From an uncultured Desulfobacterales bacterium (GTDB taxonomy: Bacteria > Desulfobacterota > DSM-4660 > Desulfatiglandales > HGW-15), in contig CAYVDE010000001.1 in assembly GCA_964450535.1 (NCBI GenBank), positions 50,567 through 114,566 on the forward strand: a stretch of 64,000 nt of DNA. Direction: 5' to 3'. Below the pieces are notes generated by a model that saw only the letters and a list, made by a program, of their open reading frames with translations, was not told the DNA's origin and did not search any database. Made by a program: the position numbers and the translations under genes. This document shows, piece after piece, positions 1,947 to 20,182 of this stretch (the stretch's first letter is position 1; every line of letters begins with the position of its first letter).

Positions 1947-2342
1947 ATGACCATTAACAGTCTTCTTTACGGTTACATGGTGGACGAGCAGGAACACCCC
2001 GACAAGAAGGTCATCATCGAGGAAGGCAGCATCGGGGACTGGATCTACGTTGTACTGGAAGGCCGGGTCAAAGTCAGGAAGAAGACATCCAGGGGTTTTG
2101 TGACCCTGGCCACCCTGGAGCAAGGGGCTGTATTCGGCGAAATACACCTCTTTCTGAAGCTGGACAGGGTCAGGAACGCGACGTATCAGGCGGACGGCCC
2201 TGTAAAGTTAGGCATACTGGACACCTCTCGCCTGGACCGGGAGTTCGAGCTTCTCTCGCCTCAGCTCAAGGCCCTTTTAAAGACCCTGGCCCGAAGGTTA
2301 TCAGAGACCATCGACAAGATCGGCCGTATGGCCTCCGCGTAG
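1947..2342 (+). CDS. stand-alone cyclic-nucleotide-binding domain protein
   Basis: IIEEGSIGDWIYVVLEGRVKV...GAVFGEIHLF fits the cNMP-binding beta-barrel. RBS AGGAGG upstream. Confidence 0.75.
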   Translation: MTINSLLYGYMVDEQEHPDKKVIIEEGSIGDWIYVVLEGRVKVRKKTSRGFVTLATLEQGAVFGEIHLFLKLDRVRNATYQADGPVKLGILDTSRLDREFELLSPQLKALLKTLARRLSETIDKIGRMASA

Positions 2343-2373
2343 TCTTTATGCACCTCACAGGGCGCAGAACCCA

Positions 2374-3764: not shown

Positions 3765-4850
3765 ATGCAGAACTCGAGTTCCGCTCAACCAGGGACGGAA
3801 GGTCTTGCCCCTTTTGTCGCTCAATTCCTCAAGGACCGTGGAGTTCCCCGGCCCTCGGAATTCGAAGCCGTTCCCATACAGCCTGACGGCTCGGAAAGAT
3901 CGTTTTTCAGGATCCGCCACGAAGATTGCGATCATACATTCATAGCCGTTCTGAATCCACCCACAAGCCCTTTCCTGAAGAGGGAAAACACCGCCTACCT
4001 GAAGATCGGCATTCACCTGCGGGCACGGGGTTTACCGATTCCGGAGATTTACCACTGGGACCTGGACGGCGGCCGGTTCCTGATAGAGGATATGGGAGAC
4101 CTTCGGTTGCAGGATGTACTGCGCTCCGGCGTTCCCTCTCAAGGCCTTGAAGAAGACGTCCTTAAGACCCTCTTTAACATGCAGTTTCAGGGGGCCGCAG
4201 GTTTCGATCAGGCCTGGTGCTGCCAGACCGCTCGCTACAACCGGGAATGCATGCGCCAATACGAGTCCGGTTACTTTCGGGACGCCTTTTTATCACGATA
4301 CCTGGGCCTTGACCTGAACCCGGATATGCTGGATCCATCTTTTGACCACCTGGCCTCGGTTGCCTCCGGGGCCCAATCCAGGTTCTTTCTCCACCGGGAC
4401 TTTCAGAGCCGCAACATACTGGTAACCAGCAGGGGACCGGCCTTTTTAGACTGGCAGGGAGGGCGCATCGGCCCTTTGGGATACGACCTGGCCTCGTTCC
4501 TGATAGACCCCTATACGGGCCTTTCCGAGTCCAAGCGTCAGAGGCTGTACAGGTTCTACCTGGAAATGCTCCGCGAGCATGACCCTTCACAGCTTCAATC
4601 CTTTGAGGATACGTATCCATACCTGGCCGTACAAAGAAACATGCAGATCTTAGGAGCGTTCGGCTTCCTGAGCCTGGTTCGGGGAAAACCTTTTTTCAGA
4701 TCCTTCATTCCGGCGGCGGGCCTTTCCCTGCTGGACCTCCTGACCGGCCTGAAAGACCACCGGCTTGACCCCATCACCGAAGTCATGGAGTCAACCCGCG
4801 AACGCTGGCTTAGGACTTGTGGAAAAGGAACTCAACACCTATTATCCTGA
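3765..4850 (+). CDS. aminoglycoside-phosphotransferase/choline-kinase-fold kinase (AmgK-like)
   Basis: Brenner motif FLHRDFQSRNILV, then FLDWQGGRIGPLGYDLASF. Sits 17 nt upstream of the AMP-ligase. Confidence 0.7.
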   Translation: MQNSSSAQPGTEGLAPFVAQFLKDRGVPRPSEFEAVPIQPDGSERSFFRIRHEDCDHTFIAVLNPPTSPFLKRENTAYLKIGIHLRARGLPIPEIYHWDLDGGRFLIEDMGDLRLQDVLRSGVPSQGLEEDVLKTLFNMQFQGAAGFDQAWCCQTARYNRECMRQYESGYFRDAFLSRYLGLDLNPDMLDPSFDHLASVASGAQSRFFLHRDFQSRNILVTSRGPAFLDWQGGRIGPLGYDLASFLIDPYTGLSESKRQRLYRFYLEMLREHDPSQLQSFEDTYPYLAVQRNMQILGAFGFLSLVRGKPFFRSFIPAAGLSLLDLLTGLKDHRLDPITEVMESTRERWLRTCGKGTQHLLS

Positions 4851-4867
4851 CAACCAAGGAGGACACC

Positions 4868-6457
4868 ATGTTCCGAGAGCACCATAATACCCTCGACATT
4901 CCCGACGCCCCGATCACCCGGCTTCTGGAAGATACTGCGGCCGGCCATCCTGATCATATCGCCGTTACTGTGGACGGCAGGGACATGACCTACGCCGAAC
5001 TGCTCGGGGCAAGCCGGGCCTTTGCTTTCGGTCTTCGAGCCCGGGGCGTCAATAATGGCGACAGGGTGGGCCTGATTCTCCCCAACCTCCCACAGTACGC
5101 CATTGCATTTTTCGGCATCCTTCAGGCCGGCGGAGTGGTAGTCAATCTAAGCGTCATGACGCCGGGCCAGTCCCTCAAGGGACTCCTTGCCCACTCCGGT
5201 GCCGAGATCGCCGTCACCGCCGACGTTTTCGCCCAACCACTCCTGGAAGCGGCGGAAGGAGACGGGCTTAGAAAGCTGATTCTCGTTTCGCTTTCAGGCC
5301 AAGACCCGCCCAAGAGAACAGGGGCCGATACGCTCGAATGCATCCCGTTCGAGGCCCTGTTTCAAAACCTTTCACCCGCGCCCCTCCCAACGGACATAAG
5401 AGGCCGTGACACAGCAGTCTTCCAGTACACCAGCGGCACCACGGGCCGTCCCAAAGCGGCGGTCCTGACTCACCGGAACCTCTTCGCCAACGTGCTCCAG
5501 ATAGACCGGGCCGTAAACGTTCCCGTGCCGGAAAACGGCGGCACAGTCTGCGTTATACCCTTCTTCCACGTGTTCGGCATGACTGTCTGTCTCCTTTCAA
5601 GCATTCACAAGGGATATAGAATGATTCTGGTTCCCAGGTTTGACTGGTCTTCCGTGCTCTCTCTCCTGGAAATCATCAAGACATACCGGCCCGTGTCCTT
5701 GCCCGCGGTGTCCTCCCTGTGGGCCGCGCTCGTTTCACACCCCGAGGCCGGAGACTATCCGCTCGACGCCGTAATAGTCCCCAGCGGGGGAGGCTCCCCC
5801 CTGCCTGCGTGGGTACAGGAGCGCTTCAAGGCCATGACCGGACGAAACATCATGGAGGCCTACGGGCTCTCAGAGGCGTCTTCCACCACCCACATCAATC
5901 CCCTTGACCGTGTGATCCCCGGAAGCATAGGCGTTCCGCTGCCCGGGACCGAGGCCCGCGTTGTCGACCTCGAGACCGGTGAGAGCCCTTGCCGCGAGGG
6001 AGAGATAGGGGAGTTGATCGTCCGCGGGCCCCAGGTCATGAAGGAATACTGGCTTGAACCTGAACTCACCGCCAAGGCGATTCGAAACGGATGGCTCTAC
6101 ACGGGCGATCTGGCCAGATCGGATCAGGAGGGGTATTTCTACGTGGTGGACAGAAAGGACGATCTCATAATTTCGAGCGGCTTCAACATCTATCCCACCG
6201 AGATCGAGGACCTGCTGATAAGCCATTCGGACATCAAGGCCGCGGCGGTGGTAGGTACGAAAGACAAGATCAGGGGACAGGTGGTGAAGGCCTTCGTAGT
6301 GCCTGAACCGGAAAAGAACCTGACGCGTGAGGATGTTCTTGCGTTCTGCCGGGCCAACCTGGCCGAGTTCAAGGTACCCAAGACTGTGGTTTTTACGGAA
6401 GATATCCCCCATGCACCCACGGGCAAGCCCATCAGGAGGGCGCTGAGGGGCGCTTAG
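4868..6457 (+). CDS. AMP-dependent acyl-CoA/acyl-ACP ligase (ApeH-like adenylating enzyme)
   Basis: AMP-binding motif FQYTSGTTGRPKAAVLTH, plus YTGDLA and PTGKPIRR. Start moved to ATG 4868, which has AAGGAGGA 5 nt upstream. Confidence 0.9.
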   Translation: MFREHHNTLDIPDAPITRLLEDTAAGHPDHIAVTVDGRDMTYAELLGASRAFAFGLRARGVNNGDRVGLILPNLPQYAIAFFGILQAGGVVVNLSVMTPGQSLKGLLAHSGAEIAVTADVFAQPLLEAAEGDGLRKLILVSLSGQDPPKRTGADTLECIPFEALFQNLSPAPLPTDIRGRDTAVFQYTSGTTGRPKAAVLTHRNLFANVLQIDRAVNVPVPENGGTVCVIPFFHVFGMTVCLLSSIHKGYRMILVPRFDWSSVLSLLEIIKTYRPVSLPAVSSLWAALVSHPEAGDYPLDAVIVPSGGGSPLPAWVQERFKAMTGRNIMEAYGLSEASSTTHINPLDRVIPGSIGVPLPGTEARVVDLETGESPCREGEIGELIVRGPQVMKEYWLEPELTAKAIRNGWLYTGDLARSDQEGYFYVVDRKDDLIISSGFNIYPTEIEDLLISHSDIKAAAVVGTKDKIRGQVVKAFVVPEPEKNLTREDVLAFCRANLAEFKVPKTVVFTEDIPHAPTGKPIRRALRGA

Positions 6458-6710
6458 CTGAATCACTCCTCTCGCGTATGTAATCGGCCAGGACGGCCAC
6501 GGATCGGAATGCCACACGACCCTCTTCGGCGTTGCGGATCTCTACACCGAAGTGCATCTTGACAAGAAGGACCAGTTCGATGGCGTCGAGGGAATCAAGA
6601 CCCAGGCCCTCCCCGAAAAGAGGGGCGTCGTCGGAGATGTCCTCCGGAGTGATTCCCTCGATGTTCATCTCTTCCGAAATGATACGCTTGATTCTCTCCC
6701 GTATGTCCAT
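6432..6710 (-). CDS. acyl carrier protein
   Basis: Phosphopantetheine site LGLDSLDAIELV. 92 aa. The 3' end overlaps the ligase 3' end by 26 nt (convergent). Confidence 0.85.
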   Translation of the reverse strand: MDIRERIKRIISEEMNIEGITPEDISDDAPLFGEGLGLDSLDAIELVLLVKMHFGVEIRNAEEGRVAFRSVAVLADYIRERSDSAKRPSAPS

Positions 6711-6770
6711 CGGCTTCTCCCTGCATCGTTTCTAAGCGTAATCTAAGATGAAGGCTTAATGTTTTTACAG

Positions 6771-7967
6771 CTATTTGGGGCGGGCCCTGCCCTCCCACGT
6801 GATCATAAAGGCCATGACAAAGACCACCCCGCCCACTGCAAGCCCCAGGATCGGCCCTACAAGCAAGGATCCGATGAGCCACTCGTAAATCCGCTCCAGT
6901 GCCTGGTACCCGAGGGTCTGAAGAGACACCTCCGTAAGGAAGCGGCCGTGCCTCATGAAGTACCCGGCCTCAATGCAGAGTGCCGGGACCAGGGGGGGCA
7001 TGCACAACTGGCTTGCCGCAACCGCCGCGATCCGGTTCAGGCGCATGAATCCCGCAGAAAAGAGGATGGCCACCGTGTGGAATCCGATGATGGGAAGGGC
7101 TCCCACAAAAACTCCCAGGGCGACCGCCGCGGCCAGCCTGCCGGGAGATGCGTCACCCTTCATCAGGACACGCAACGAACGGACGGGGTGCAGAATGGAC
7201 ACACCGGGTCCGCCATCTCCTGAGGCGCCGGGAAGCCTTGTGTGAGGCCGGGGAAGCATTGAACGCATGCTGAGTCTTGTGTTCAGCAGGGCCAGGCGGG
7301 TGTTATCCCGCAGCAGGCTGAAGTGGGAAACGTGCAGGTCTTTGGGGGGATAGACAACCGACACGTCGACATCTCGAACCTCCACCCCGGCCCATGCCGC
7401 CCTTACCAGCACCTCGATCTCAAATGCAAAACCCTTTTCCCGTAAAGGCAGGTGCATGAGGACGTCCAGGGGGTAGGCCCTGAAGCCGCTCTGGCTGTCT
7501 CCGATCTTGCGGCCGGTCTGGACGCGAAACCAGAAATTGGAAAACGCCCTTCCAAAACGCCTTGACAGAGGAGCGCCCGCGGCCTGAAAATCCCGCTTTC
7601 CCACCAGCAAGGCCTTCGGGTACTCCTCTATGGCAAGGAAAAAGCGGTCGATTTCAGCCGGATTGTGCTGACCGTCGGCGTCGAGGGTTATAATGTGGGT
7701 CACGCCCATTGAGTGCGCCTCTCGCGCCGCAGTGATAATAGCCTTCCCCTTTCCACGGTTTTTGTCGTGACGCACGACTCGAACCGGAAGTCCCACAAGG
7801 ACTCCGGCTCCTTGGTCCGTGCTCCCGTCATCCACCACAAGAACCCGGTCATGAGCCTTCAGGGCTCGCTCAACGACTTCCCGAAGGGTCGCCGAATGAT
7901 TGTAAACCGGGATTACGATCAGAATTTCCTTCATTGATGGCCGTGCCGTCCTTTCTGGTTGCCGCAT
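6771..7967 (-). CDS. family 2 glycosyltransferase fused to a polytopic membrane domain (DUF2062-like)
   Basis: VIPVYNH, VVDDGSTD and LDADGQH (DxD) in the N-terminal half. Hydrophobic C-terminal roughly 130 aa. An alternative start exists at 7934. Confidence 0.8.
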   Translation of the reverse strand: MRQPERTARPSMKEILIVIPVYNHSATLREVVERALKAHDRVLVVDDGSTDQGAGVLVGLPVRVVRHDKNRGKGKAIITAAREAHSMGVTHIITLDADGQHNPAEIDRFFLAIEEYPKALLVGKRDFQAAGAPLSRRFGRAFSNFWFRVQTGRKIGDSQSGFRAYPLDVLMHLPLREKGFAFEIEVLVRAAWAGVEVRDVDVSVVYPPKDLHVSHFSLLRDNTRLALLNTRLSMRSMLPRPHTRLPGASGDGGPGVSILHPVRSLRVLMKGDASPGRLAAAVALGVFVGALPIIGFHTVAILFSAGFMRLNRIAAVAASQLCMPPLVPALCIEAGYFMRHGRFLTEVSLQTLGYQALERIYEWLIGSLLVGPILGLAVGGVVFVMAFMITWEGRARPK

Positions 7968-8259
7968 CTATTCCCTACCCAAAAGGAAGAGGCTTTTCAA
8001 CTCTCTTGTACGAACCCCCCACCGCAAGATCGGTTGTCCCGAATTTCCCGCCCGCAAACCGTTCACTTCAATAAAGAACAAATTTGCCGTTGCTATACTC
8101 CTGAACAGCTGCCGGCTGTCGACATAACCGCGGCTCTCATACGGTTTGACGATGTTGCAATGAATAGGGTAAGATCTGCAACCCCGGATGACAATCAAAT
8201 GGTGATATGGTTTTCACCCGGTTTTGACGAGTCAATTACTTGGATCGCGGTTCCCGATT

Positions 8260-9129
8260 ATGAAGAGCTTCCTGGTGAATCTACTGCTCCGTACGAGCCG
8301 GCTGACAGGAGGTTGGTTTCTTCGAACAGTAGCCTACGTGATAACGGGGGGATACTTCCTGTTCAGGCCCAACCGGGTCCGGGCGGGCATGGGACTTTAC
8401 AGGGCCCTTTTCCCGGAGCGGGGTCGGGTCTTCCACCTTTACGCTGTGTGGCGGCAGTTTACGGATTTCACCGCCGCATACTGTGATCGCCTGGAACTGG
8501 AGCAGGGAAGAGAAATCCACAAGACTGAAGAGGGATGGTCCTTTCTCGAGGAAGCCGCCGAACAGGGGCGGGGGGGGATCCTGCTGGTGTCTCACTTCGG
8601 CAACCTGGAAATAGCGGCCAGGCTGCTGAGGCGTAAGGGCCTTCCGGCGCTCCTGTTAATGGGGGAAAGGGACCCCAGGCAGGTAGCCAGGCAACAGCGG
8701 GAGGCCATGAAAGAGGAGGGCCTGGACATCCTTCTCTCCTCTCCGGAAGGAGGGTCTCCCTTTGACGGGCTCGAAGCCCTTTATTACCTCAGGGACGGCG
8801 GATTCCTGGCAATGGCCGGTGATCTTGCCTGGCAGCCCAGGCCCAGGCTCGTGGAGGCCCCCTTCCTGGGAAAAACTATCCTGCTGCCGGAGGCCCCGCA
8901 TGCCCTCGCCCTGGTTACAGGGGTTCCTCTCTTCACGCTGTGGGTGTTTAGAAAAGAAAGGGCCTCCTATCATGTGGTGGTCTCAAAACCACGCTATGTG
9001 GAGGCCGCCTCTCGGAAAGAACGTGCGGAAGCGATTCGACGATCCGCTCTTCTATACGCCCAGGAGCTGGAAACGGCCTTGAAAAGCCACCCCTGGCAAT
9101 GGCATGTCTTTGAACCCGTATTAAAATAA
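8260..9129 (+). CDS. LpxL/HtrB-type lysophospholipid acyltransferase (ApeD-like)
   Basis: N-terminal TM segment and the acyltransferase motif LLVSHFGNLE. ATG 8260 chosen; the ORF also opens at TTG 8224. Confidence 0.7.
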   Translation: MKSFLVNLLLRTSRLTGGWFLRTVAYVITGGYFLFRPNRVRAGMGLYRALFPERGRVFHLYAVWRQFTDFTAAYCDRLELEQGREIHKTEEGWSFLEEAAEQGRGGILLVSHFGNLEIAARLLRRKGLPALLLMGERDPRQVARQQREAMKEEGLDILLSSPEGGSPFDGLEALYYLRDGGFLAMAGDLAWQPRPRLVEAPFLGKTILLPEAPHALALVTGVPLFTLWVFRKERASYHVVVSKPRYVEAASRKERAEAIRRSALLYAQELETALKSHPWQWHVFEPVLK

Positions 9130-9227
9130 TGTCCCCGGATACACCCGAGGTCCCAAGATCAGCCTCCCCAGGTCTTGCGCGCCATCGCGCCGTGGCCTTG
9201 GGGAACCCTTAATTCAGGAGGAAATCA

Positions 9228-11015
9228 GTGACCGCTACTATCAAGACCAATACGGCCAAAACGCCCGCACCTGGCGGCGGCCTTGGGGAAGGGATGGCCG
9301 AAGGCTGCCGGAGCGTGGTGATCTGGGCCGATGTCCTGGACCGGATCAATGTCTTTCCTGTGCCCGATGGAGATACCGGAAGGAACCTTGCCACAAGCCT
9401 GGCCCCTCTTCAGCATGACCTAACGGGTAAGGAAGAGCTGAAAACCCGCATCCTTGCATCCGCCCGCGGGAACTCGGGCAACATAGCGGCCCGGTTCTTC
9501 TGCGGCTTCCTGGAGGCCGAGAGCCCCCTGGGCCTTCCCGAGGCCTGTCGAAAAGGACGTGACCTGGCCTATGAGGCCTTAAAAAAACCTAAACAAGGCA
9601 CCATCCTCACCCTTTTCGACGCCCTGGTGGAGGCATTGGACAAGACCCCGCCGGGACAAAACGAGGCATGGGCATTAGGAGTGATCCGTCACCTCGAATC
9701 CGCGACCCTTGCCACACGGAACCAACTGCCCGAACTCAAGGCCGCAGGAGTGGTCGACGCAGGCGCCCTGGGCATGTTCCTCTTTTTCAGGACCTGTTTC
9801 CAGGTAATGACCGGTCGCGGCGATGACCCTGAAACCCTGCCGGCGCCGCTGAAGCCCTTTCTTCACACTGTCGAGATCTGGCGGGCTGATATGAGCGAGG
9901 GGTACTGCCTGGACGCCGTGATAAGATCCGCCGAACGGAACAAAGAGGCTGTCGAGGCCTTGTCTGACCTGGGGGACGACGCCATTGCCACGTCCCGCGG
10001 GGAAGTCCTCAAGGTCCACCTCCACACGAGGGATCGAGGGAGGGCGAGAGAGCAACTCGAGAAGATCGGAGAGGTCGTGGGCTGGGCCTCCGACGACCTG
10101 GCCTTGCAGACACGCCGGTTCGCCCGGCCCGCGATTCGCCAGGCCCTTCACATAGTCACGGACGCCGCCGGATCCATAGAGCGCCATCAGGCTTTGGGTC
10201 TTGGAATCACTCTGCTGGACAGCTACATTCTGATAGGTGATGAGAGCCTGCCTGAGACCTGCGTGGCCCCTGAGCATCTCATCTCGGCCATGCAGGCCGG
10301 GACCAAGGTGTCTACGTCCCAGGCCTCGACATGGGAACGGGGACGGGCCTATGCAAAGATCCTGGACCTGCATTCCCGAGCGCTCTACATGACCGTGGGC
10401 TCGTTTTACACGGGCAATCACGAGGCCGCAGTCGACTGGAAAGCCGACCATGACCCGGAGGACCGTCTCATTCTTCTGGATTCCGGGGTGGCCTCGGGCC
10501 ACCTGGGCCTTTCGGCCATGGCCGCGGCAAGGTTTTCCATGGTCGGAGGAGACCCGGAAGAGGTCGTGGGGTTCGCCCGCAAGGCCGTTGGCGCGTGCGG
10601 GGAGGTCCTGTTTTTGGACAAGCTCCAGTTCGTGGCGGCCGGCGGAAGGATGTCCAAGACAAGCGCCTTTTTCGGGGACATGCTCAACCTGAAGCCGGCG
10701 GTCAAGCCCACGCCGAAAGGGGCTGAGAAGGTGGCGGTCCTGAGGAACCGCAAGGACCAAATCGGCCTGGCCCTGAAGACCCTGGACAAAGGGCTCGCTC
10801 CAGGCAAAACGGCCGTCGTCATGGTGGAGCACACGAACAACCGTGAGTGGGTTGAATCCGAGTTGATCCCCATGATTAGAGGAAGATTTCCAGCGGCCTT
10901 TGTCTTTGCCCAGCAGATCTCGCTAACATCGGCCGCTCACATGGGACCCGGATCATGGGGAGTCGCTTTTCTGCAAGTGCCCGAACTTGAGCGAATGGAG
11001 CCCTTTTTCCCGTGA
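9228..11015 (+). CDS. DAK2 (FakA N-domain-like) fused to a DegV/FakB-like fatty-acid-binding domain
   Basis: DAK2: NVFPVPDGDTGRN and ARGNSGN. DegV: HIVTDAAGS, STSQAS, LDSGVASGHLG, AGGRMSKTSAFFGDMLNLKPAV, AAHMGPGSWGVAF. GTG start with RBS CAGGAGG. Confidence 0.75.
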   Translation: MTATIKTNTAKTPAPGGGLGEGMAEGCRSVVIWADVLDRINVFPVPDGDTGRNLATSLAPLQHDLTGKEELKTRILASARGNSGNIAARFFCGFLEAESPLGLPEACRKGRDLAYEALKKPKQGTILTLFDALVEALDKTPPGQNEAWALGVIRHLESATLATRNQLPELKAAGVVDAGALGMFLFFRTCFQVMTGRGDDPETLPAPLKPFLHTVEIWRADMSEGYCLDAVIRSAERNKEAVEALSDLGDDAIATSRGEVLKVHLHTRDRGRAREQLEKIGEVVGWASDDLALQTRRFARPAIRQALHIVTDAAGSIERHQALGLGITLLDSYILIGDESLPETCVAPEHLISAMQAGTKVSTSQASTWERGRAYAKILDLHSRALYMTVGSFYTGNHEAAVDWKADHDPEDRLILLDSGVASGHLGLSAMAAARFSMVGGDPEEVVGFARKAVGACGEVLFLDKLQFVAAGGRMSKTSAFFGDMLNLKPAVKPTPKGAEKVAVLRNRKDQIGLALKTLDKGLAPGKTAVVMVEHTNNREWVESELIPMIRGRFPAAFVFAQQISLTSAAHMGPGSWGVAFLQVPELERMEPFFP

Positions 11016-11767
11016 CGGACAAGACCATAAGGGCCCTCAAGGGACTGGGCATGGCCTTTATGTTCGGGACCTTCGGCCTGGGGATCTCAGTGTTCCTGTT
11101 CGGGGTGATTCCCGTGTCGTGGGTGTTGAACCGCGTTGCAGGGGAGAAACCCAGGGTGGAGAGGGCCGCACGTGTGGGGTTCGGGTGGTGGCTGGAATTC
11201 ATGGGCGTGCTGGGCCTGGTTCGGAGCGTTCCGTCCCGCGGTGTTGTCTTGCCCGGCCCTTGCGTTGTCGTGGCGAATCACCCCGGACTCTTCGACGTCC
11301 TGTTCCTGATAAGGGACATCCCGTCACTCTCGGTCCTGGTCAAGACCGGGCTGGCCAGGAAACTTCCTCTCGGCCCGGTGCTGAAGGCGCTCGAGTATGT
11401 GCTCGTACCGGATTATGACCACGTCAATCCACTGGACACAGCAGAGGAGACTCTCGAAAAAATCCAAAAGGGCCGTAAGGTGCTCCTGTTTCCGGAAGGC
11501 ACGCGTTCACCCTCCGGCTCGCTCCGGACCTTCCGGACCGGGGCCTTCAAGATCGCCCGCATGACCGGAGTCCCCATTCAGCCCGTGCTTGTTCGGAACA
11601 CCCCGCCCTTTATGCCCAAGGAAGAACCCTGGTACCTGCCTCCCCGGCGGACATCATTGCTGGAGTTGGAGTTCTGGGAACCCCTGCCTCCTCCGAAAAA
11701 GGGGGAGGAGCGGGACTTCGCCCGCCGCCTGGAGCAACGCTACCGGGAGGCGCTGGGGTCCGCCTGA
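11012..11767 (+). CDS. 1-acyl-sn-glycerol-3-phosphate acyltransferase family (PlsC-like)
   Basis: HX4D motif ANHPGLFD and FPEGTRS. The GTG start overlaps the upstream stop (GTGA). Confidence 0.85.
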   Translation: MTDKTIRALKGLGMAFMFGTFGLGISVFLFGVIPVSWVLNRVAGEKPRVERAARVGFGWWLEFMGVLGLVRSVPSRGVVLPGPCVVVANHPGLFDVLFLIRDIPSLSVLVKTGLARKLPLGPVLKALEYVLVPDYDHVNPLDTAEETLEKIQKGRKVLLFPEGTRSPSGSLRTFRTGAFKIARMTGVPIQPVLVRNTPPFMPKEEPWYLPPRRTSLLELEFWEPLPPPKKGEERDFARRLEQRYREALGSA

Positions 11768-13035
11768 GCCCCTGATGCCGTCTTTTTCCTGAACACCCTC
11801 TTCGCCCTGGGATTGTGACGCCGATAGGTCCCGTCCAGCATCTCCTTCTCGATCACTTTCATGAAGAGGTCCCCCATGCGGACCTCGTAAGGCCGTTCGG
11901 CGTAAAAGGTGTCCCAGGCATAATGAAACAGCTCTTCCAGTTTCTCCGGGCTCATGAGCCTGGGCTGGTACACCACTTTGTCGGCGGTGTAGTCAAGCCA
12001 GTTGTTGTTGAAAATGCGCCCTTCCTTCAACAGTTGCTCGCGGATCGGGGAGTGGGGAAACGGCGTCAGTATGGTGAACTCGGCCACGTCCAGGTCGATT
12101 TCAAAAAGGAAATCGATGAGACGCTTGAGGTAGTCTTCGTCGTGATAATCCAGACCCATCAGGATGGTCCCCTCCACTGAGATCCCGTGATCCTTGAGTC
12201 TTTGAATCCGCCGTCGCATGGCGTCGGTCATCTCGAAGATAGCCTGGTACACGTACCAGCAGCCCGCATCCGCGGCCAGCCTGAGTATCTCGTCATTGGA
12301 GAGCAGAGGATGCGACACCCACTTTTTCTTGAGGGGAATCATGGCTGTGAACAGCTCCCTGAGCCAGCGCTTGTCGTTGGCCAGGGAGTTGTCCACAATG
12401 AAGAGCCGGTTGTTGGGAATGGACTCCATCTCCTCGATGACCTTGTCAATGGGGCGGGGCCTGAACTTCCGGCCGCCCAGGAAAGCCACACAGCAAGGAT
12501 CGCAGTTGAACCTGCATCCCCTGGACGCGTGCACCAGGTCGAGCATCTGGACGCCCCGGTAGTTGTACAGGTCGCGGTCCAGGATATCCCGGCGGGCGGT
12601 CCCCACCAGCCGGATGTCGGGCATCTCCGCCGGGTAGTCATAGACCGGCTTCAGGCAGCCGGCGTCGAGGTCCTTCATTACCTCCTGAAACCGGCCTTCC
12701 ACCTCTCCCAGAAAGACGGAGTCGGCATGCAGGGCAACCTCCTCCGCGTGCAGCATGGTGGCGATCCCTCCGAAGATCACGGGGACCCCCATGGACCGGT
12801 ACGTGCCGGCCAGTTCGAACGCCCTCGGAAGCTGGCAGGTAAGCATCACGGAAAAGGCCGCCAGATCGAAAGAAGGGTCGAAAGTCATCTCCTCGAGATC
12901 CTCGTCCGTGAAGACGATTTCCACGTCATCGGGGACCTCCGCGGCGAATACCACGGGCCCGTGCGGGGGCAGGTGGAACTCCCTCTGCCTCTCGAGCTTC
13001 GGCCAACTTGGATATATCAGGTGCATCTTCTTCAT
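11740..13035 (-). CDS. B12-binding-domain radical SAM enzyme
   Basis: CX3CX2C cluster ASRGCRFNCDPCC, preceded by a B12-binding-like Rossmann region (VIFGGIATMLH). ATG 13035 overlaps the thioesterase stop (ATGA). Confidence 0.85.
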   Translation of the reverse strand: MKKMHLIYPSWPKLERQREFHLPPHGPVVFAAEVPDDVEIVFTDEDLEEMTFDPSFDLAAFSVMLTCQLPRAFELAGTYRSMGVPVIFGGIATMLHAEEVALHADSVFLGEVEGRFQEVMKDLDAGCLKPVYDYPAEMPDIRLVGTARRDILDRDLYNYRGVQMLDLVHASRGCRFNCDPCCVAFLGGRKFRPRPIDKVIEEMESIPNNRLFIVDNSLANDKRWLRELFTAMIPLKKKWVSHPLLSNDEILRLAADAGCWYVYQAIFEMTDAMRRRIQRLKDHGISVEGTILMGLDYHDEDYLKRLIDFLFEIDLDVAEFTILTPFPHSPIREQLLKEGRIFNNNWLDYTADKVVYQPRLMSPEKLEELFHYAWDTFYAERPYEVRMGDLFMKVIEKEMLDGTYRRHNPRAKRVFRKKTASGAQADPSASR

Positions 13036-13499
13036 GGTTTCATTAATTCCCCTTCCCTCCATCGCCTGAGAAAGTCCTCGAAAAACGGTGGAGGAAACAT
13101 GCACAGGTTGCGGTCCATGTCCAGCATCATCTGGACGGTGTATCCGGTGGTGGCCACCGCACCCTCTTGGTCACGGATGACGAAGGAATGGTTGATCCGC
13201 GCCGCCTCCGAGTAGTGAAGGGACGCCTCCACAACAACCTCCTCTTTGAGCTGAAGCGGTCTTTGGAAGTCCGTGTGCAGCCGCTTTATAGGCACTAAAA
13301 TGCCGTTATTGTAAAAATCCATGTACCCGATGCCGTGGCTCTCCCCCAGGGCGTCCCTGGCCTCCTCGAAATAACCGGCGTACCTGCCGTGCCACACAAT
13401 GCCTATGGAATCGACCTCTTCGAAACGCACCTTTCGACGAATCTCGGCACGAAGAGGCGGAGGGTCCCCCTCTCGCATGTGAAAGTATGGCTTCATCAT
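13032..13499 (-). CDS. 4HBT/YbgC-type hotdog thioesterase (ApeK-like)
   Basis: VRFEEVDSIGIVWHGRYAGYFEEAR. Start trimmed to MMKPYF at 13499, which overlaps the dehydratase stop (ATGA). Confidence 0.8.
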   Translation of the reverse strand: MMKPYFHMREGDPPPLRAEIRRKVRFEEVDSIGIVWHGRYAGYFEEARDALGESHGIGYMDFYNNGILVPIKRLHTDFQRPLQLKEEVVVEASLHYSEAARINHSFVIRDQEGAVATTGYTVQMMLDMDRNLCMFPPPFFEDFLRRWREGELMKP

Positions 13500-13885
13500 G
13501 GGTCGCCTTCCTCGATACCAGGGGTGAGAGTGAACGAAGACGCAGGTTCCCCTCGTGCGAACACCCGGGCCTCTATTCCCGTTCCCCCCTCCAACTCCTT
13601 CATCACACAACGGATCTCGACTTCATCGCCGGGCCCTATGGGAAGAGTGAACTTGGCTTTGTCCACCGAAACGGTCGCATCGCCCAAGCCTTGCCAGACC
13701 TCCCCGGCCACTTGCATGGCGGCCATTATCTGCACCACTGCGGGCAGAAGGGGCCGCCCGGGAAAGTGTCCCCTGAATCCGGCGAAGCCTTCATCAAAGC
13801 GATATCGTCCCACGGCCGCGCCTGTTTCGTCCAGAAAAGGCTTTGAAACAACGGCCGATCGAACGGCCTGTCTCAGCTTCTCCAT
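13496..13885 (-). CDS. FabZ-like hotdog dehydratase (ApeI-like)
   Basis: FRGHFPGRPLLPAVVQIMAAMQ resembles the FabZ active-site region. 129 aa. Confidence 0.7.
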   Translation of the reverse strand: MEKLRQAVRSAVVSKPFLDETGAAVGRYRFDEGFAGFRGHFPGRPLLPAVVQIMAAMQVAGEVWQGLGDATVSVDKAKFTLPIGPGDEVEIRCVMKELEGGTGIEARVFARGEPASSFTLTPGIEEGDP

Positions 13886-13889
13886 GAGT

Positions 13890-16283
13890 TCACTTCCCGA
13901 GCCCGCTCTGAAAGGCCGGAATCACCAGCAGGGCCGATGGCACGGCCGCGCCAATACCCAAAAGCACGGTGACTCCTATGGTGTGGAGGGCCGGGTGCCC
14001 GGCCAGGACCAGGGCGCCGAATGCGGCCAGGGTCGTCAGCCCGGACACCAGCACCGCCTTTTCCGTTCCAAGCCCGCCTTCTCCGTTCTTGTGCATAACC
14101 ATGAAGACACCATAGTCCACTCCGAGACCTATAATCAAGACCGCCGCCACCATGCTGAAAACATTCAGGGGAATTCCCAGCAAGGCCATTCCGCCCATGG
14201 CCGCTACAAGGCCTGTACACACCGGGACCAGGGCCGCGCCCATTCGAAACACGCTGCAAAGAAGGATCCCGAGCAGCACGAGGACCATAACGGCCGCGCC
14301 CAGGATGAATAAGAGAAAATCGCGTCCCAGGGCGAGGCTTATCATGTCCCCGAATACGGACGGTGAGATGACACCGATCCGGGGCATGTCGCGGAACACC
14401 TCGGTCAGCTGGGTTTTCAGGTCCGGAGAATCGGGTACCAGGCTTACGACTTTGACGCCCCCATCAGATTGCAGCACAAAGCCTTCCATGATCTCTTCCA
14501 GCCCCGCACCGGCCAGGTCCTCTGCTCCCACTTCATCCGCTCCAGAAACGATCCACTTAAAGAACGGGGCGAACGCGCCCTTTGAAAAACCCAGGTCCGC
14601 ACCCGCCTCCTGCAAGGCCGCCCGGATCTGCGAGACCCGGGGTTCCGACCAGAACGCGGCCCAGCGTCGCCGGTTTTCCTCTTGCTTCAAAGGGGAAGGC
14701 AGCAGAGGGGCCAGGCTCATTATATCGGAGGCCGGCACTACGGTCTTCAGCCTCTCATACACCAGGTCATTCACCGGAAGGGCCGAGTCAAGGTCCTCGC
14801 CCTCGGCTACAACGAGCGCCCTTCCCAGAAGCCCTCCCCAGTTCCGGGTCAAGCGGTCTTCCTGTTCCCTGATTTCCGCCGGGGCCTTGCTCATCTTGCG
14901 GAGGTCCCCTTCAAACTCCAGTCCGGCGGCCTGCCATCCCATAAAGACAAGGACCCCCGCCCAGACCCATACGATCCACCGGGGCCGGCGGCCAATAGGC
15001 ATGGAAGCCCGGGCCGTGTCTTTCCGGAGAGGACGGATCCCCTGGGGAAGCACGATCAATGAGATGATCAGGGCGCAGGCCATGCCGATCAGGGAAAACA
15101 CTCCAAGCTGCCGCTGAGCCGGAATGGTGCTGAGCAGGAGCACGCTGAAGGCCGCCATGCTGGTCAGCCCTGCGAAGAGGACCGGGACTCCTACCCGGCC
15201 CGTGATCTCCGCGGCCCGGCCCCTTCCTGCCCGGCGAAGGGCGAAGTAGACGTGGATCCCGAAATCGATTGAAATACCCAGCAGCACTGCCCCGAAACCG
15301 AGAGTGACGGCGGAAACAGGCTTATAAATCAGAGAGGTTCCAGCAACGGCCACAAGAAGCGTGGAAGCGGGGACCAGCAGGATGAAGAGCCCGTTCACGG
15401 ACCGGACGAAAACCAAAAACAGGAGGATCAGGGCGACCGAGGAGAGGGAAAGGACCAGGAACAGGTCCCTGCGCACAGTATCGGCATTTGCCACGCTATA
15501 CAGGTGCCCGCTGTAGAGGGAGGCCGTCATCTGAGGCGGAAGATCCCCGGCCAGTCTCCGGAAACCGTCAATCAGCGCCTTCCCTCCTTCCGGATCGGTC
15601 ATGGGCACCTCCGTCTCGGCGATGATAAGCGTGTTGCGGCCGTCCCTGCTGACAAAGTGCCCGTCCGTGATGCGGACATCCGGTATCGGGCTCACGGCCC
15701 GCATTTTCTCGAAGGCGATAAGTCTAAGTCCCAGGGGGTCCCGGCTCTCCATCATCCTGCCTCCCCATCCTTCAGGGGAGGCCAGGCCGCGCAGAATCCC
15801 CTCGAGCCTGGCCCTCACCCGATCCGGATCCAGTAACTCGAGCGCGCGCAACCGGTCTTTCTCCGTGAAAAGGCTGGGCAACGCGTCCATCAGAAAATCA
15901 GGCAGCCCTTCTCCCCCTTCCACCGGGGGACCGGTCATCACCCGGGTGAACAGGGGCGGCTTCATAGCACCTGCCAGGCTGTCCGCCGCCCTTACAAGGG
16001 CCCCGATCGGAACCTCCTGTTCGGCGCTCACCTGAATGAGGAGCTTGCCTGAAAGAGGCGACTCCTGAAGGAACCTGAAATGCCTTGCCGCCTCGGAGGG
16101 TTCCTCGGGGATCATGGAGCGAATGTCTTCATCGACCCTCATGGCCTGAAGAGCCGCCAGAGAAGCAATCCAGAGGAAGAGCACAAGGGCCGCCAAGATA
16201 CGGCGGCGCGTGGTGAAGAAAACGAAGAGGAAGGAGAAAAGGGAGGAGGTCTTGAGGTGTCGAGGTGTTGAGGTTCTAATCAC
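13890..16283 (-). CDS. MMPL/RND-superfamily predicted exporter (ApeM-like)
   Basis: About 800 aa with two blocks of multiple TM helices separated by large soluble loops. The start is uncertain: GTG 16283 is proposed, while the ORF opens at 16370 inside the LolA-like gene. Confidence 0.8.
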   Translation of the reverse strand: MIRTSTPRHLKTSSLFSFLFVFFTTRRRILAALVLFLWIASLAALQAMRVDEDIRSMIPEEPSEAARHFRFLQESPLSGKLLIQVSAEQEVPIGALVRAADSLAGAMKPPLFTRVMTGPPVEGGEGLPDFLMDALPSLFTEKDRLRALELLDPDRVRARLEGILRGLASPEGWGGRMMESRDPLGLRLIAFEKMRAVSPIPDVRITDGHFVSRDGRNTLIIAETEVPMTDPEGGKALIDGFRRLAGDLPPQMTASLYSGHLYSVANADTVRRDLFLVLSLSSVALILLFLVFVRSVNGLFILLVPASTLLVAVAGTSLIYKPVSAVTLGFGAVLLGISIDFGIHVYFALRRAGRGRAAEITGRVGVPVLFAGLTSMAAFSVLLLSTIPAQRQLGVFSLIGMACALIISLIVLPQGIRPLRKDTARASMPIGRRPRWIVWVWAGVLVFMGWQAAGLEFEGDLRKMSKAPAEIREQEDRLTRNWGGLLGRALVVAEGEDLDSALPVNDLVYERLKTVVPASDIMSLAPLLPSPLKQEENRRRWAAFWSEPRVSQIRAALQEAGADLGFSKGAFAPFFKWIVSGADEVGAEDLAGAGLEEIMEGFVLQSDGGVKVVSLVPDSPDLKTQLTEVFRDMPRIGVISPSVFGDMISLALGRDFLLFILGAAVMVLVLLGILLCSVFRMGAALVPVCTGLVAAMGGMALLGIPLNVFSMVAAVLIIGLGVDYGVFMVMHKNGEGGLGTEKAVLVSGLTTLAAFGALVLAGHPALHTIGVTVLLGIGAAVPSALLVIPAFQSGLGK
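16252..16275. repeat. 3 x TYGAGGTG octamer
   Basis: ttgaggtg tcgaggtg ttgaggtt, at the LolA-like/MMPL junction. Confidence 0.7.
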
Positions 16284-16926
16284 TTTGGACCCGGACGTTT
16301 GAAAAGGTGATGACCATGCGGTCCCCGTTCGTTTCGCGGATCTCGATCGATTCCAGGTGATCCAAATCACGGGAAAAAGTCACGAGCATACGGTCCAGGC
16401 GTTCAGCCGCGGCCTCGGACCTGGGTTCCAGTTCCAATCGGATTGGCGAGCGGCTCAGAACGGACATTTCGAACCTCTCACCAAGCCAGTCAAAGTCCGC
16501 CCGGACCCATGCCAGGAGCTGCTCCATGAAGTGCCTGATGCCCGTCTCGGCACCGGGCGGCGCTCCTTCTTTTGAATCACCCGAGCCCCGCCAGGTCCTG
16601 AGTCGATCCCCTTCCGCTGAAAAGCCGAACCGCTCCGGCGAGAGGACCTCCCAGTGAACAAAACCCGGGGCCTCGTAACGAAAGAGCCCGCTGGAACGAA
16701 GCGGTTCTTCCAGCATGCCCGTGTGGCTCTCCTGGATAAACTCGCTCTCAATGGCGACGATCCCGCTGAAGGCATCGGATATACGTCTCAGGACATCTTC
16801 ATCGGACCCTGACTCGATCCCTGCGGAAGCGAAACGATCTTGAACCCACAAGGGGCCGGTGGCAATCAAAACCAATGCGATAAGGAGGGCCGGACAGACT
16901 TTCATTTCGAGGACGCCCCTGGTCAT
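16276..16926 (-). CDS. LolA-like outer-membrane lipoprotein carrier protein (ApeL-like)
   Basis: Signal peptide MKVCPALLIALVLIA and a LolA-like FIQESHTGMLEEPLRSSGLFRYEAPGFVHWEV. ATG 16926 overlaps the upstream stop (ATGA). Confidence 0.65.
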   Translation of the reverse strand: MTRGVLEMKVCPALLIALVLIATGPLWVQDRFASAGIESGSDEDVLRRISDAFSGIVAIESEFIQESHTGMLEEPLRSSGLFRYEAPGFVHWEVLSPERFGFSAEGDRLRTWRGSGDSKEGAPPGAETGIRHFMEQLLAWVRADFDWLGERFEMSVLSRSPIRLELEPRSEAAAERLDRMLVTFSRDLDHLESIEIRETNGDRMVITFSNVRVQSD

Positions 16927-17384
16927 GACGGGCTCCAGACCTTTATTTCGGCCCATGCTATATCTCTCCCTGACCGTGCCACGGCCCCCTGTGCCACGGA
17001 AAAGTCTCCAAACGATTTCTCGGTTCCGACGGTCACGACCAGTCGATCCCCGGCAGAGGCGCTTCCAGCCGTCCTCCCCTTTTTGATTCCAACCAGGTAC
17101 CCGCCGCGCACCGGCCGGCCGTTTATGAGGTTTTCGTAGCCTTTTACGGCGGCATAGGCCTGGGCTATCATTTCGAAGAAGGCCGGCGGGTCCACTCTGC
17201 CCTTTTCCGTCAGGATAAACCCGTCCTCACCAACCACGGCCTCCACAACCCCGCGGCCCGCCACAGGATCGCACTTCATGAGCCGGTCCACCAGACGCAT
17301 GGGCGGCCTGTGGGGTATTATCCTGTCCGCCGAAATTGGAAGACAGCTTACCAGCCGCATTTCTCCCTCAACAGCTATAATCAC
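16923..17384 (-). CDS. FabA/FabZ-like hotdog dehydratase (ApeP-like)
   Basis: IIPHRPPMRLVDRL motif. 153 aa. The start overlaps the ACP stop (ATGA). Confidence 0.7.
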   Translation of the reverse strand: MIIAVEGEMRLVSCLPISADRIIPHRPPMRLVDRLMKCDPVAGRGVVEAVVGEDGFILTEKGRVDPPAFFEMIAQAYAAVKGYENLINGRPVRGGYLVGIKKGRTAGSASAGDRLVVTVGTEKSFGDFSVAQGAVARSGRDIAWAEIKVWSPS

Positions 17385-17641
17385 AACATCCCCAACTCCT
17401 TCGCTTTATTGATCACAAACCGGTGTATGTCTTCAAGTGTGCGGATCTTCCGTATCTCCTCTTCGTCCCTGATCTTTATCTTGAAGGCATGTTCAAGGGC
17501 GATCACCATGTCCACCATGTCCAGGCTGTCGAGGCCCAGGTCATCGAACAGCGTGGCCTCGGGCACCATATCCGCCCTATCCAGCTCGAATTCCTCAGCC
17601 AGAGACGCATCGACACGTTCGATGATCTCCTGCTCAGTCAT
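17381..17641 (-). CDS. acyl carrier protein
   Basis: LGLDSLDMVDMVIALE phosphopantetheine site. 86 aa. Confidence 0.9.
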   Translation of the reverse strand: MTEQEIIERVDASLAEEFELDRADMVPEATLFDDLGLDSLDMVDMVIALEHAFKIKIRDEEEIRKIRTLEDIHRFVINKAKELGML

Positions 17642-18869: not shown

Positions 18870-18902
18870 GCGTATCTTTCCTCCAGGCCGAATTGCAGAA
18901 AA

Positions 18903-20138: not shown

Positions 20139-20182
20139 AAAGCGAAATTCCTTGAAACTTCGGGCAGTTCAATCATCAGCCT

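What the first reader, a model, noticed from the sequence alone, without database searches (positions are those of the whole stretch)
9228..11767. Single-polypeptide DAK2-DegV (FakA-N + FakB-like) fusion coupled to a PlsC acyltransferase
Seen: the N-terminal DAK2 signatures (PVPDGDTGRN, ARGNSGN) and a complete DegV-like C-terminal half (STSQAS, LDSGVASGHLG, AGGRMSK...LKPAV, HMGPGSWG) lie in one 595-aa ORF. Its stop overlaps the GTG of a PlsC with HX4D (GTGA). Established: in the Fak system the FakA Dak2 domain phosphorylates a fatty acid held by the separate DegV protein FakB, and the acyl-phosphate feeds glycerolipid acyltransferases. Inference: this is a self-contained fatty-acid-kinase-like unit. 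It could activate the free acid released by the cluster thioesterase and hand it to PlsC/LPLAT, which would be the lipid-anchoring step.
Basis: partly seen in the sequence, partly recalled or inferred. Interest (0 to 1): 0.6.

Follow-up and report, generated by a model that had tools for sequence, protein, structure and literature searches.

The report
Single-chain fatty acid kinase (FakA-FakB fusion)
One 595-residue protein joins the ATP-using half of the bacterial fatty acid kinase to its normally separate fatty-acid-binding partner; the family is widespread but untested, and here it sits in a pigment-lipid gene cluster where it most likely makes acyl-phosphate for building the lipid anchor.

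Summary
ORF 9228-11015 (+) encodes Dak2 (aa 44-190), the FakA middle domain (225-296) and a full-length DegV domain (307-582). Its stop overlaps the GTG of a PlsC-family acyltransferase (GTGA).

The C-terminal half is a true DegV/FakB domain, not the FakA C-domain, so this is not an ordinary YloV/FakA.

All tested Fak catalytic and ligand residues are about invariant across more than 100 diverse fusion proteins. AlphaFold gives a compact, confident model (pLDDT 92.5, pTM 0.92).

The fusion is not unique. It is a large family across many phyla, annotated only as 'DegV family protein', and it has been mentioned in the literature but I found no biochemical characterisation.

New here:
- In 7 of 42 loci the gene abuts plsY, the only known acyl-phosphate-using acyltransferase.
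- The window's Desulfobacterota clade lies in aryl-polyene-like lipid clusters, three of which carry their own plsY.

The product therefore most likely goes to PlsY (or via PlsX to ACP).

This is a new variant of a known system and of moderate interest.

The parts
9216..9221 (+). Shine-Dalgarno AGGAGG, 6 nt upstream of the GTG start
   Evidence: Read directly from the sequence.
9228..11015 (+). Dak2-FakA_M-DegV fusion gene (595 aa), proposed single-chain fatty acid kinase
   Evidence: ORF. Pfam and NCBIfam domains. AF2 model with pLDDT 92.5 and pTM 0.92.
9357..9797 (+). Dak2 (FakA_N/DhaL-like) ATP-Mg domain, aa 44-190. Motifs: PVPDGDTGRN (9357-9386), ARGNSGN (9462-9482), GVVDAG (9747-9764).
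   Evidence: Pfam E 6e-17. D47, D49, G51, N53, G81, N82, G84, G124, D177 and G179 are invariant in 104-112 fusion proteins. They align to the FakA PVPDGDTG motif. Foldseek TMt 0.76 to S. aureus FakA_N.
9900..10115 (+). FakA middle domain, aa 225-296, with C227 (GYC, 9900-9908) and H264/H266 (HLH, 10017-10025)
   Evidence: Pfam PF21645 E 1.6e-8. C227 is conserved in 112/112 and H264 and H266 in 111/112. The equivalents of FakA C240/H282/H284 (or C244/H289/H291) are required for activity (PMC9136124, PMC10848957).
10146..10973 (+). Full-length DegV (FakB-like) fatty-acid-binding domain, aa 307-582, with T363, T395, R474 and H571
   Evidence: Pfam DegV E 6e-33 over model positions 2-278 of 280. 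TIGR00762 scores 119 bits, above its 99.7 cutoff. Foldseek TMt 0.79-0.88 to fatty-acid-loaded DegV/FakB structures. Conservation: T363 110/112, T/S395 111/112, R474 111/112, H571 108/112.
11012..11767 (+). PlsC/LPLAT-family acyltransferase (ApeD-like), with a start overlapping the fusion's stop (GTGA). HX4D at 11279-11296, EGTR at 11495-11506.
   Evidence: The same adjacency is seen in L001, L003 and L014.
8224..9129 (+). LpxL/PIM-type acyltransferase (PF03279), first gene of the three-gene + strand operon
   Evidence: It is conserved directly upstream of the fusion in L001, L003, L004 and L014.
13032..13610 (-). 4HBT-fold thioesterase (ApeK-like), candidate source of the free acid
   Evidence: Pfam 4HBT_2 E 2e-15. 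Its homolog lies directly upstream of the fusion in L005, L007, L008, L009 and L010.
4817..20950 (.). Surrounding aryl-polyene-like lipid cluster. Genes: AMP-ligase (4817-6457 +), ACP (6432-6710 -), GT2-DUF2062 (6771-7967 -), B12-radical SAM (11740-13104 -), ApeI-like DH (13496-13885 -), MMPL (13890-16370 -), LolA-like (16276-16956 -), ApeP-like DH (16923-17384 -), ACP (17381-17641 -), two KS (17634-20138 -), KR (20183-20950 -).
   Evidence: Pfam scans. ApeP-like is assigned through the L001 homolog.

Best explanation
The protein is a single-chain fatty acid (carboxylic acid) kinase. It consists of the minimal catalytic FakA unit (the Dak2 ATP-Mg domain plus the Cys/His/His middle domain) covalently joined to a genuine FakB-type DegV domain. 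The DegV domain takes the place of FakA's degenerate C-terminal FakB-docking domain.

Proposed steps:
1. The DegV domain buries the acyl chain and presents the carboxylate, held by T363, T395 and H571, with R474 above it.
2. The Dak2 domain transfers the gamma-phosphate of ATP to the carboxylate, giving acyl-phosphate.
3. The acyl-phosphate is used by PlsY to acylate glycerol-3-phosphate at sn-1. Alternatively PlsX converts it to acyl-ACP.
4. In this cluster, that would supply the 1-acyl-G3P acceptor which the translationally coupled PlsC/ApeD-like enzyme acylates at sn-2.
5. GT2-DUF2062 and LpxL-like enzymes then decorate the lipid, and MMPL/LolA-like proteins export it.

The substrate acid may be an ordinary fatty acid or the acid released by the cluster thioesterase.

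Shown here: the architecture, residue conservation, the predicted fold, and gene linkage to plsY and to APE-like clusters.
Inferred: kinase activity, substrate identity, and the PlsY-then-PlsC order.

My confidence is about 0.8 for acyl-phosphate-forming kinase activity and about 0.5 for the pathway placement.
For: - Domains: Dak2, FakA_M and full-length DegV.
- Residues: the Mg/ATP aspartates D47 and D49 (SsFakA D37/D39), GNSG, C227/H264/H266, and the FakB carboxylate set T363/T395/H571 with the essential arginine R474 (FakB2 T61/S93/H264/R170, PMC10848957) are conserved in 108-112 of 112 fusion proteins, down to about 25% identity.
- Minimal unit: FakA_N plus the middle domain suffice for kinase activity on FakB, and FakA_C only docks FakB (PMC9136124). 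The fusion therefore contains every required part.
- Structure: AF2 gives pLDDT 92.5 and pTM 0.92. The C-half superposes on fatty-acid-loaded DegV/FakB structures at TMt 0.79-0.88 and the N-domain on FakA_N at TMt 0.76.
- Gene linkage: plsY directly abuts the fusion in 7 of 42 loci from different phyla, including cultured Pseudoxanthomonas sp. Root630. plsY also lies inside the APE-like cluster in L003, L010 and L014.
- Cluster context: 8 of the 11 close-clade loci have two or more APE-like cluster genes around the fusion.
- Precedent for the PlsC step: the published APE lipid carries its conjugated acyl chain on sn-2 of a lysoglycerolipid, placed by the PlsC-type enzyme ApeD (bioRxiv 10.1101/2020.12.19.423268).
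Against: - No enzymatic data exist for any member of the family.
- The 64-kb window has no plsY or plsX, so the consumer must be encoded elsewhere in this genome.
- 5 of the 8 well-covered APE-like loci also lack plsY within 10 kb.
- ApeK-type thioesterases showed no hydrolysis in vitro and may be proofreading enzymes (PMC8253772).
- One close homolog (L002) is not in such a cluster.
Confidence: 0.6

Rival explanations
1. The acyl-phosphate, still held on the DegV domain, is handed directly to the translationally coupled PlsC/LPLAT enzyme (or to the LpxL-like enzyme), which uses it as acyl donor.
For: - The GTGA stop/start overlap.
- The LpxL-AT, fusion, PlsC gene order is conserved in the window, L001, L003 and L014.
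- The window has no plsY.
Against: - No HX4D acyltransferase is known to use acyl-phosphate. PMC5700162 contrasts PlsY with all others, which use CoA or ACP thioesters.
- L003 and L014 have both the coupled plsC and a cluster plsY, so PlsC does not replace PlsY.
- Outside this clade the conserved partner is plsY, not plsC.
Confidence: 0.1
2. The kinase makes acyl-phosphate that housekeeping PlsX converts to acyl-ACP. The coupled PlsC then uses that acyl-ACP. This is the known Firmicute route of exogenous fatty acids to sn-2.
For: - The FakAB-PlsX-PlsC route is established (PMC10146087, PMC12594616).
- It explains the coupling with PlsC without a cluster plsY.
Against: - No plsX is in the window.
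- The family's recurrent neighbour is plsY, not plsX.
- The cluster already has two ACPs and an AMP-ligase for loading.
Confidence: 0.15
3. It is the organism's general housekeeping kinase for scavenged or recycled fatty acids, and its position in the cluster has no pathway meaning.
For: - L002 and many distant members lie outside specialised clusters.
- The pairing with plsY in other phyla looks like general phospholipid synthesis.
Against: - The close clade forms a separate long-stem branch.
- It is embedded in APE-like clusters in 8 of 11 loci, with conserved operon partners.
Confidence: 0.1
4. It is a non-catalytic lipid-binding or regulatory protein, or an ordinary YloV/FakA that needs separate FakB proteins.
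For: - Some DegV proteins have regulatory phenotypes (PMC10138225).
- NCBIfam YloV gives a partial hit.
Against: - Catalytic residues of both halves are about invariant.
- There is no FakA_C FakB-docking domain.
- The YloV score of 143 is far below its 396 cutoff and covers only model positions 8-300.
Confidence: 0.04

Closest known systems
Two-component fatty acid kinase FakA + FakB (S. aureus, S. suis; PDB 7W7H, 7RM7, 4X9X)
   Same: - The Dak2 ATP domain has the same Mg/ATP motifs.
- The middle domain has the same Cys/His/His.
- The DegV domain has the same Thr/Ser/His/Arg carboxylate site.
- The expected product is acyl-phosphate, and the family shows genomic linkage to PlsY.
   Different: - It is one polypeptide.
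- FakA's C-terminal FakB-docking domain (PF13684) is absent, and a complete FakB-type DegV sits in its place.
- It has a single fixed binding domain instead of exchangeable FakB isoforms.
- It is predicted to be compact, whereas FakA has freely tethered domains.
- It occurs mostly in Gram-negative and uncultured phyla.
Single-chain ATP-dependent dihydroxyacetone kinase (Citrobacter freundii DhaK-DhaL fusion)
   Same: It uses the same logic: an EDD-fold substrate-binding domain fused to a Dak2/DhaL nucleotide domain (as discussed in PMC10848957).
   Different: - The domain order is reversed (K then L).
- It has no middle domain.
- The substrate is dihydroxyacetone bound as a hemiaminal, not a fatty-acid carboxylate.
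Aryl polyene (APE) gene cluster lipid-anchoring module ApeD / ApeJ / ApeK (E. coli CFT073, Xenorhabdus doucetiae)
   Same: The same kinds of genes surround the fusion: KS pair, KR, ApeI/ApeP dehydratases, ACPs, AMP-ligase, 4HBT thioesterase, PlsC-type LPLAT, GT2-DUF2062, LolA-like and MMPL (PMC8253772).
   Different: - The described APE clusters list no kinase, DegV or PlsY. Their lysolipid acceptor is taken from housekeeping lipid synthesis.
- This Desulfobacterota/Myxococcota variant adds the fusion kinase, a B12-radical SAM enzyme and an LpxL-like acyltransferase, and sometimes plsY.
YloV (TIGR03599, DAK2 domain fusion protein)
   Same: The N-terminal 300 residues align to model positions 8-300.
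   Different: The C-terminal 230 model positions are unmatched, and the score of 143 is below the 396.1 cutoff.

Membership tests
FakA / YloV (TIGR03599, NF038248) | N-terminal Dak2 domain with Mg/ATP-binding DxD and GNSG motifs | tested here: met
   PF02734 E 6e-17. D47, D49 and G81-N82-S83-G84 align to FakA and are invariant in the family.
FakA / YloV (TIGR03599, NF038248) | Middle domain with the conserved Cys and two His | tested here: met
   PF21645 E 1.6e-8. C227, H264 and H266 are conserved in 111-112 of 112.
FakA / YloV (TIGR03599, NF038248) | C-terminal FakA-like_C domain (PF13684), the FakB docking site | tested here: not met
   No hit even at E<=10. The positive-control FakA scores 1.4e-84. 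hhalign of the fusion C-half against FakA_C gives probability 2.9%.
FakA / YloV (TIGR03599, NF038248) | Score above the NCBIfam curated cutoff | tested here: not met
   YloV scores 143 against a cutoff of 396.1. FakA_VfrB scores 89.8 against a cutoff of 975.
DegV / FakB fatty-acid-binding proteins | Full-length DegV domain above curated cutoffs | tested here: met
   PF02645 scores 114.7 bits against a cutoff of 27, over model positions 2-278 of 280. TIGR00762 scores 119 against a cutoff of 99.7.
DegV / FakB fatty-acid-binding proteins | Carboxylate-binding Thr, Ser/Thr and His, and the essential Arg (FakB2 T61, S93, H264, R170) | tested here: met
   T363, T395, H571 and R474 were mapped through the 1PZX alignment and are 108-111 of 112 conserved. 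Residue roles come from PMC10848957.
DegV / FakB fatty-acid-binding proteins | Two-subdomain fold with the inserts that close the fatty-acid tunnel | tested here: met
   Foldseek TMt 0.79-0.88 over 277-289 residues of fatty-acid-loaded DegV/FakB chains. This rests on a predicted model only.
DegV / FakB fatty-acid-binding proteins | Stand-alone protein of about 280 aa; FakB1 equivalog score | tested here: not met
   The domain is fused in a 595-aa protein. NF038249 scores 25.4 against a cutoff of 350.
Fatty acid kinase (function) | ATP-dependent formation of acyl-phosphate | not testable with these tools
   This needs an enzyme assay.
Fatty acid kinase (function) | Genomic association with the acyl-phosphate consumer PlsY | tested here: inconclusive
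   At family level the feature is met. plsY abuts the fusion in 7 of 42 loci and lies in-cluster in 3 more. In the window itself it is not met: there is no plsY in 64 kb.
PlsC / LPLAT (downstream gene) | PF01553 domain with HX4D and EGTR motifs | tested here: met
   E 1.2e-19. HPGLFD lies at aa 90-95 and EGTR at aa 162-165. TIGR00530 scores 70.3, below its 102.95 cutoff, so this is a divergent member.
Aryl polyene (APE) biosynthetic gene cluster | Type II KS pair, KR, ApeI/ApeP dehydratases, ACPs, AMP-ligase, thioesterase, LPLAT, GT2-DUF2062, LolA-like and MMPL exporter | tested here: met
   Pfam hits. ApeP-like is assigned through the L001 homolog.
Aryl polyene (APE) biosynthetic gene cluster | Aryl-headed polyene product; ApeB methyltransferase; ApeG and ApeN homologs | not tested
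   The product is unknown. No methyltransferase was seen among the scanned ORFs, and ApeG and ApeN were not specifically searched for.

The most novel reading that the evidence does not exclude
The translationally coupled HX4D acyltransferase takes the acyl group directly from DegV-bound acyl-phosphate. That would be a thioester-independent donor chemistry new to the PlsC/LPLAT superfamily, and it would anchor a thioesterase-released polyene acid to a glycerolipid without PlsY, PlsX or ACP.
Probability: 0.08. Interest if true: 0.8.

Novelty: new variant of a known kind. Interest (0 to 1): 0.45.

Why it matters
- Fatty acid kinase is treated as a two-protein system of Gram-positive bacteria. 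This family shows a one-polypeptide form spread through many Gram-negative and uncultured phyla and repeatedly wired to plsY, which implies that acyl-phosphate-based fatty-acid activation is much more widespread.
- A compact single chain containing all required parts could settle the open dispute about the Fak active site: whether the middle-domain Cys/His/His is catalytic or a structural zinc site, and where phosphotransfer occurs (PMC9136124 versus PMC10848957).
- For aryl-polyene-type lipids, it gives a concrete, testable route for building the glycerolipid anchor.

Tried and rejected
Considered and rejected:
- C-terminal half is FakA_C, making this an ordinary YloV. Rejected.
- Fusion is an assembly or frameshift artefact. 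Rejected because all 120 best hits, and 106 of 150 representatives at 50% identity, share the architecture.

Searches that found nothing:
- plsY in the window with an HMM built from 7 neighbour PlsY proteins: no hit even at E<=10.
- plsX among the remaining ORFs: none.
- Literature searches for biochemical work on Dak2-DegV fusions, or for DegV in aryl polyene clusters, in the held corpus. [quoted passage not shown] 2006)'.

Inconclusive:
- The formal monophyly test on a midpoint-rooted NJ tree returned False for both fusions and FakA, because of a basal multifurcation. The groups do not interleave, but a single origin is not proven.

Tools or data that were unavailable:
- The look-up of encoding contigs on the exact protein P0001 found no record.
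- The Kinch et al. 2005 EDD paper is not held.
Full report
**Observation.**
- The ORF at 9228-11015 (+) is real: 595 aa with a GTG start and an AGGAGG Shine-Dalgarno sequence 6 nt upstream.
- Pfam finds Dak2 (aa 44-190, 6e-17), the FakA-like middle domain (225-296, 1.6e-8) and a full-length DegV domain (307-582, model positions 2-278 of 280, 6e-33).
- NCBIfam's DegV domain model passes its cutoff (119 against 99.7). The YloV and FakA models match only their first 300 positions and fall far below their cutoffs.
- The stop codon overlaps the GTG of a 251-aa PF01553 acyltransferase (GTGA) that carries HX4D and EGTR motifs.

- Scanned alone at E<=10, the C-terminal 295 residues hit only DegV (9e-34) and no FakA C-domain.
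- A canonical FakA from Mammaliicoccus, used as positive control, hits FakA-like_C at 1.4e-84.
- A profile of 112 fusion C-halves against a profile of 38 FakA C-domains gives hhalign probability 2.9%. The FakA_C consensus lacks the GGR arginine.
- PDB sequence and fold searches agree. The N-half matches FakA_N (TMt 0.76), and the C-half matches fatty-acid-loaded DegV/FakB chains (TMt 0.79-0.88).
- The protein is therefore not an ordinary YloV.

**Functional residues.**
- In an alignment of 104-112 fusion proteins reaching down to about 25% identity, the following are invariant or nearly so:
  - D47, D49, T50, G51, N53
  - G81-N82-S83-G84
  - G124-T125
  - D177, G179
  - C227, H264, H266
  - D312, T363, Q365, T/S395, D418, S423, G473-R474
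  - H571-x-GPG
- These correspond to published functional residues:
  - the FakA Mg/ATP aspartates;
  - the middle-domain Cys/His/His needed for activity;
  - the FakB2 residues T61, S93 and H264 that bind the fatty-acid carboxylate;
  - the essential R170 (PMC10848957; PMC9136124).
- PMC9136124 also shows that FakA_N plus the middle domain suffice for kinase activity on FakB, and that FakA_C only docks FakB and has no fatty-acid tunnel.
- The fusion therefore equals the minimal kinase plus its substrate-presenting protein.
- AlphaFold2 with this alignment gives pLDDT 92.5 and pTM 0.92, a compact three-domain body.

**How common it is.**
- All 120 best hits in the 5.8-billion-protein collection have the same Dak2 plus DegV architecture. 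Where they are named at all, the names are only 'DegV family protein', 'hypothetical protein' or 'uncharacterized protein'.
- The closest named relative (81% identity) comes from a Thermodesulfobacteriota MAG.
- In the library clustered at 50% identity, 211 representatives score E<=1e-30. Of the top 150, 106 carry both domains at near full length, and the rest are fragments.
- The species-level genome scan finds full-length fusions in these groups:
  - Desulfobacterota, Myxococcota, Spirochaetota
  - Bacteroidales, Cytophagia
  - Gemmatimonadota, Acidobacteriota
  - Neomarinimicrobiota, Krumholzibacteriota
  - Thermotogae, Acetothermia, Xanthomonadales
  - two cultured strains, Pseudoxanthomonas sp. 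Root630 and Vagococcus salmoninarum
[quoted passage not shown] 2006)'. I found no biochemical study in the held corpus.
- In an NJ tree of the N plus middle region, the fusions do not interleave with canonical FakA. The window's relatives form a separate long-stem Desulfobacterota clade. The formal monophyly test was inconclusive.

**Gene neighbourhood.**
- I analysed 42 loci that carry a full-length fusion.
- plsY (PF02660, confirmed) directly abuts or overlaps the fusion gene in 7 loci from different phyla: L012, L015, L024, L027, L043, L045 and L079.
- A DUF1295 membrane protein is the near neighbour in 7 other loci (6 abutting; in L018 it lies about 0.6 kb away with a lipocalin gene in between).
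- The window's clade is different. Of its 11 loci:
  - 8 have two or more aryl-polyene-type cluster genes around the fusion;
  - 2 (L006 and L007) show only one such gene;
  - 1 (L002) has none.
- L010, from Polyangiaceae (35% identity), is also in such a cluster.
- Within these clusters:
  - the LpxL-type acyltransferase lies directly upstream in the window, L001, L003, L004 and L014;
  - the PlsC-type gene lies directly downstream in the window, L001, L003 and L014;
  - the 4HBT thioesterase lies directly upstream in L005, L007, L008, L009 and L010.
- L003, L010 and L014 carry plsY inside the cluster.
- The window has neither plsY nor plsX.

**The cluster in the window (about 4.8-21 kb).**

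| Gene | Coordinates (strand) |
|---|---|
| AMP-ligase | 4817-6457 (+) |
| ACP | 6432-6710 (-) |
| GT2-DUF2062 | 6771-7967 (-) |
| LpxL-like acyltransferase | 8224-9129 (+) |
| Dak2-DegV fusion | 9228-11015 (+) |
| PlsC | 11012-11767 (+) |
| B12-radical SAM | 11740-13104 (-) |
| 4HBT thioesterase | 13032-13610 (-) |
| ApeI-like dehydratase | 13496-13885 (-) |
| MMPL | 13890-16370 (-) |
| LolA-like | 16276-16956 (-) |
| ApeP-like dehydratase | 16923-17384 (-) |
| ACP | 17381-17641 (-) |
| Two ketosynthases | 17634-20138 (-) |
| Ketoreductase | 20183-20950 (-) |

- This matches the gene content of APE clusters (PMC8253772).
- In the solved Xenorhabdus APE lipid, the PlsC-type ApeD places a conjugated acyl chain on sn-2 of a pre-existing 1-acyl lysoglycerolipid, and ApeJ adds the sugar and the aryl polyene.

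**Mechanism.**
- The most economical reading is a single-chain fatty acid kinase that produces acyl-phosphate.
- The recurrent physical linkage to plsY, the only acyltransferase known to use acyl-phosphate (PMC5700162, abstract seen), is independent genomic support for that product.
- In the APE-like clusters, the kinase together with PlsY would make the 1-acyl-G3P acceptor that the coupled PlsC then acylates.
- This explains the kinase-PlsC coupling without proposing new chemistry.
- It also explains why some clusters carry their own plsY in addition to plsC.
- Whether the acid is an ordinary fatty acid or the thioesterase-released cluster product is open. The thioesterase-kinase adjacency in five loci favours the latter, but ApeK-type enzymes have not shown hydrolysis in vitro.
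- Passage through PlsX to acyl-ACP is a known alternative route.

**Verdict.**
- The pathway step to PlsC is probably off by one enzyme.
- The architecture is a variant of the Fak system that is known at database level but uncharacterised. It is not unique to this window.
- The associations with plsY and with APE-like clusters are, as far as I could find, undescribed. They make the function directly testable.

Noticed in passing
window 11740-13104 (-): A B12-binding radical SAM gene sits inside the APE-like cluster, its 3' end overlapping the 3' end of plsC by about 28 nt (convergent genes). Homologs recur with the fusion in L001, L005, L008, L009 and L010. The described E. coli and Xenorhabdus APE clusters list no such enzyme. 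Its role (C-methylation, or another modification of the chain) is unknown.
   Followed up: partly
L018, L029, L033, L035, L049, L059, L070 (next to the fusion gene): In a distant sub-group of the fusion family, the near neighbour is a DUF1295 membrane protein (steroid-reductase/PEMT-like, E 1e-68), which directly abuts the fusion in six loci. In L018 a lipocalin gene abuts the fusion instead, and DUF1295 lies about 0.6 kb upstream. The heliorhodopsin preprint also reports DegV, DUF1295 and DUF2177 co-occurring.
   Followed up: partly
window 3765-4850 (+): An APH-family phosphotransferase gene overlaps the start of the cluster's AMP-ligase gene (4817) by 34 nt. No homolog was seen in the related loci. 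It is unclear whether it belongs to the cluster.
   Followed up: no
window 13032-13610 (-) and 13890-16370 (-): The longest-ORF starts are probably too far upstream. The thioesterase ORF (192 aa) overlaps the ApeI-like gene by 115 nt, whereas the L001 ortholog is 155 aa. The MMPL ORF (826 aa) overlaps the LolA-like gene by 95 nt, whereas the L001 ortholog is 790 aa.
   Followed up: partly
window 21051-21734 (-) and 21619-22671 (+): A flavin reductase-like gene flanks the KR end of the cluster. The overlapping 350-aa ORF on the + strand has no Pfam hit and may be spurious.
   Followed up: no
window 33559-35622 (+): A 687-aa ORF has no Pfam family at E<=0.001. It lies next to a bifunctional 3-hydroxyacyl-CoA dehydrogenase/enoyl-CoA hydratase (35612-38146, -) whose dehydrogenase domain comes first.
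   Followed up: no
window 1077-3579 and 40836-45670, 54891-56381: This is a dense signalling region. It contains a cNMP-binding-PilZ fusion, an EAL-HDOD protein, an adenylate/guanylate cyclase, a STAS/HATPase/SpoIIE partner-switching set with a dCache-HAMP-SpoIIE phosphatase, and a GAF-GGDEF cyclase.
   Followed up: no
window 45703-61637 (+): An exopolysaccharide-type locus. It contains an oxidoreductase-hexapeptide transferase fusion, a DegT aminotransferase, a UDP-GlcNAc 2-epimerase, an 811-aa TPR protein, an OmpA-like protein, a Bac_transf priming transferase, an AAA_31/ParA-type ATPase, a Wzz/GNVR protein, and three ORFs without Pfam hits (58812-59792, 60885-61637, 61567-62559).
   Followed up: no
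L054 4922-7476: In a Bacillaceae MAG, a canonical FakA (with FakA_C) is followed directly by a separate DegV gene. This is the unfused arrangement next to which the fusion can be compared.
   Followed up: no
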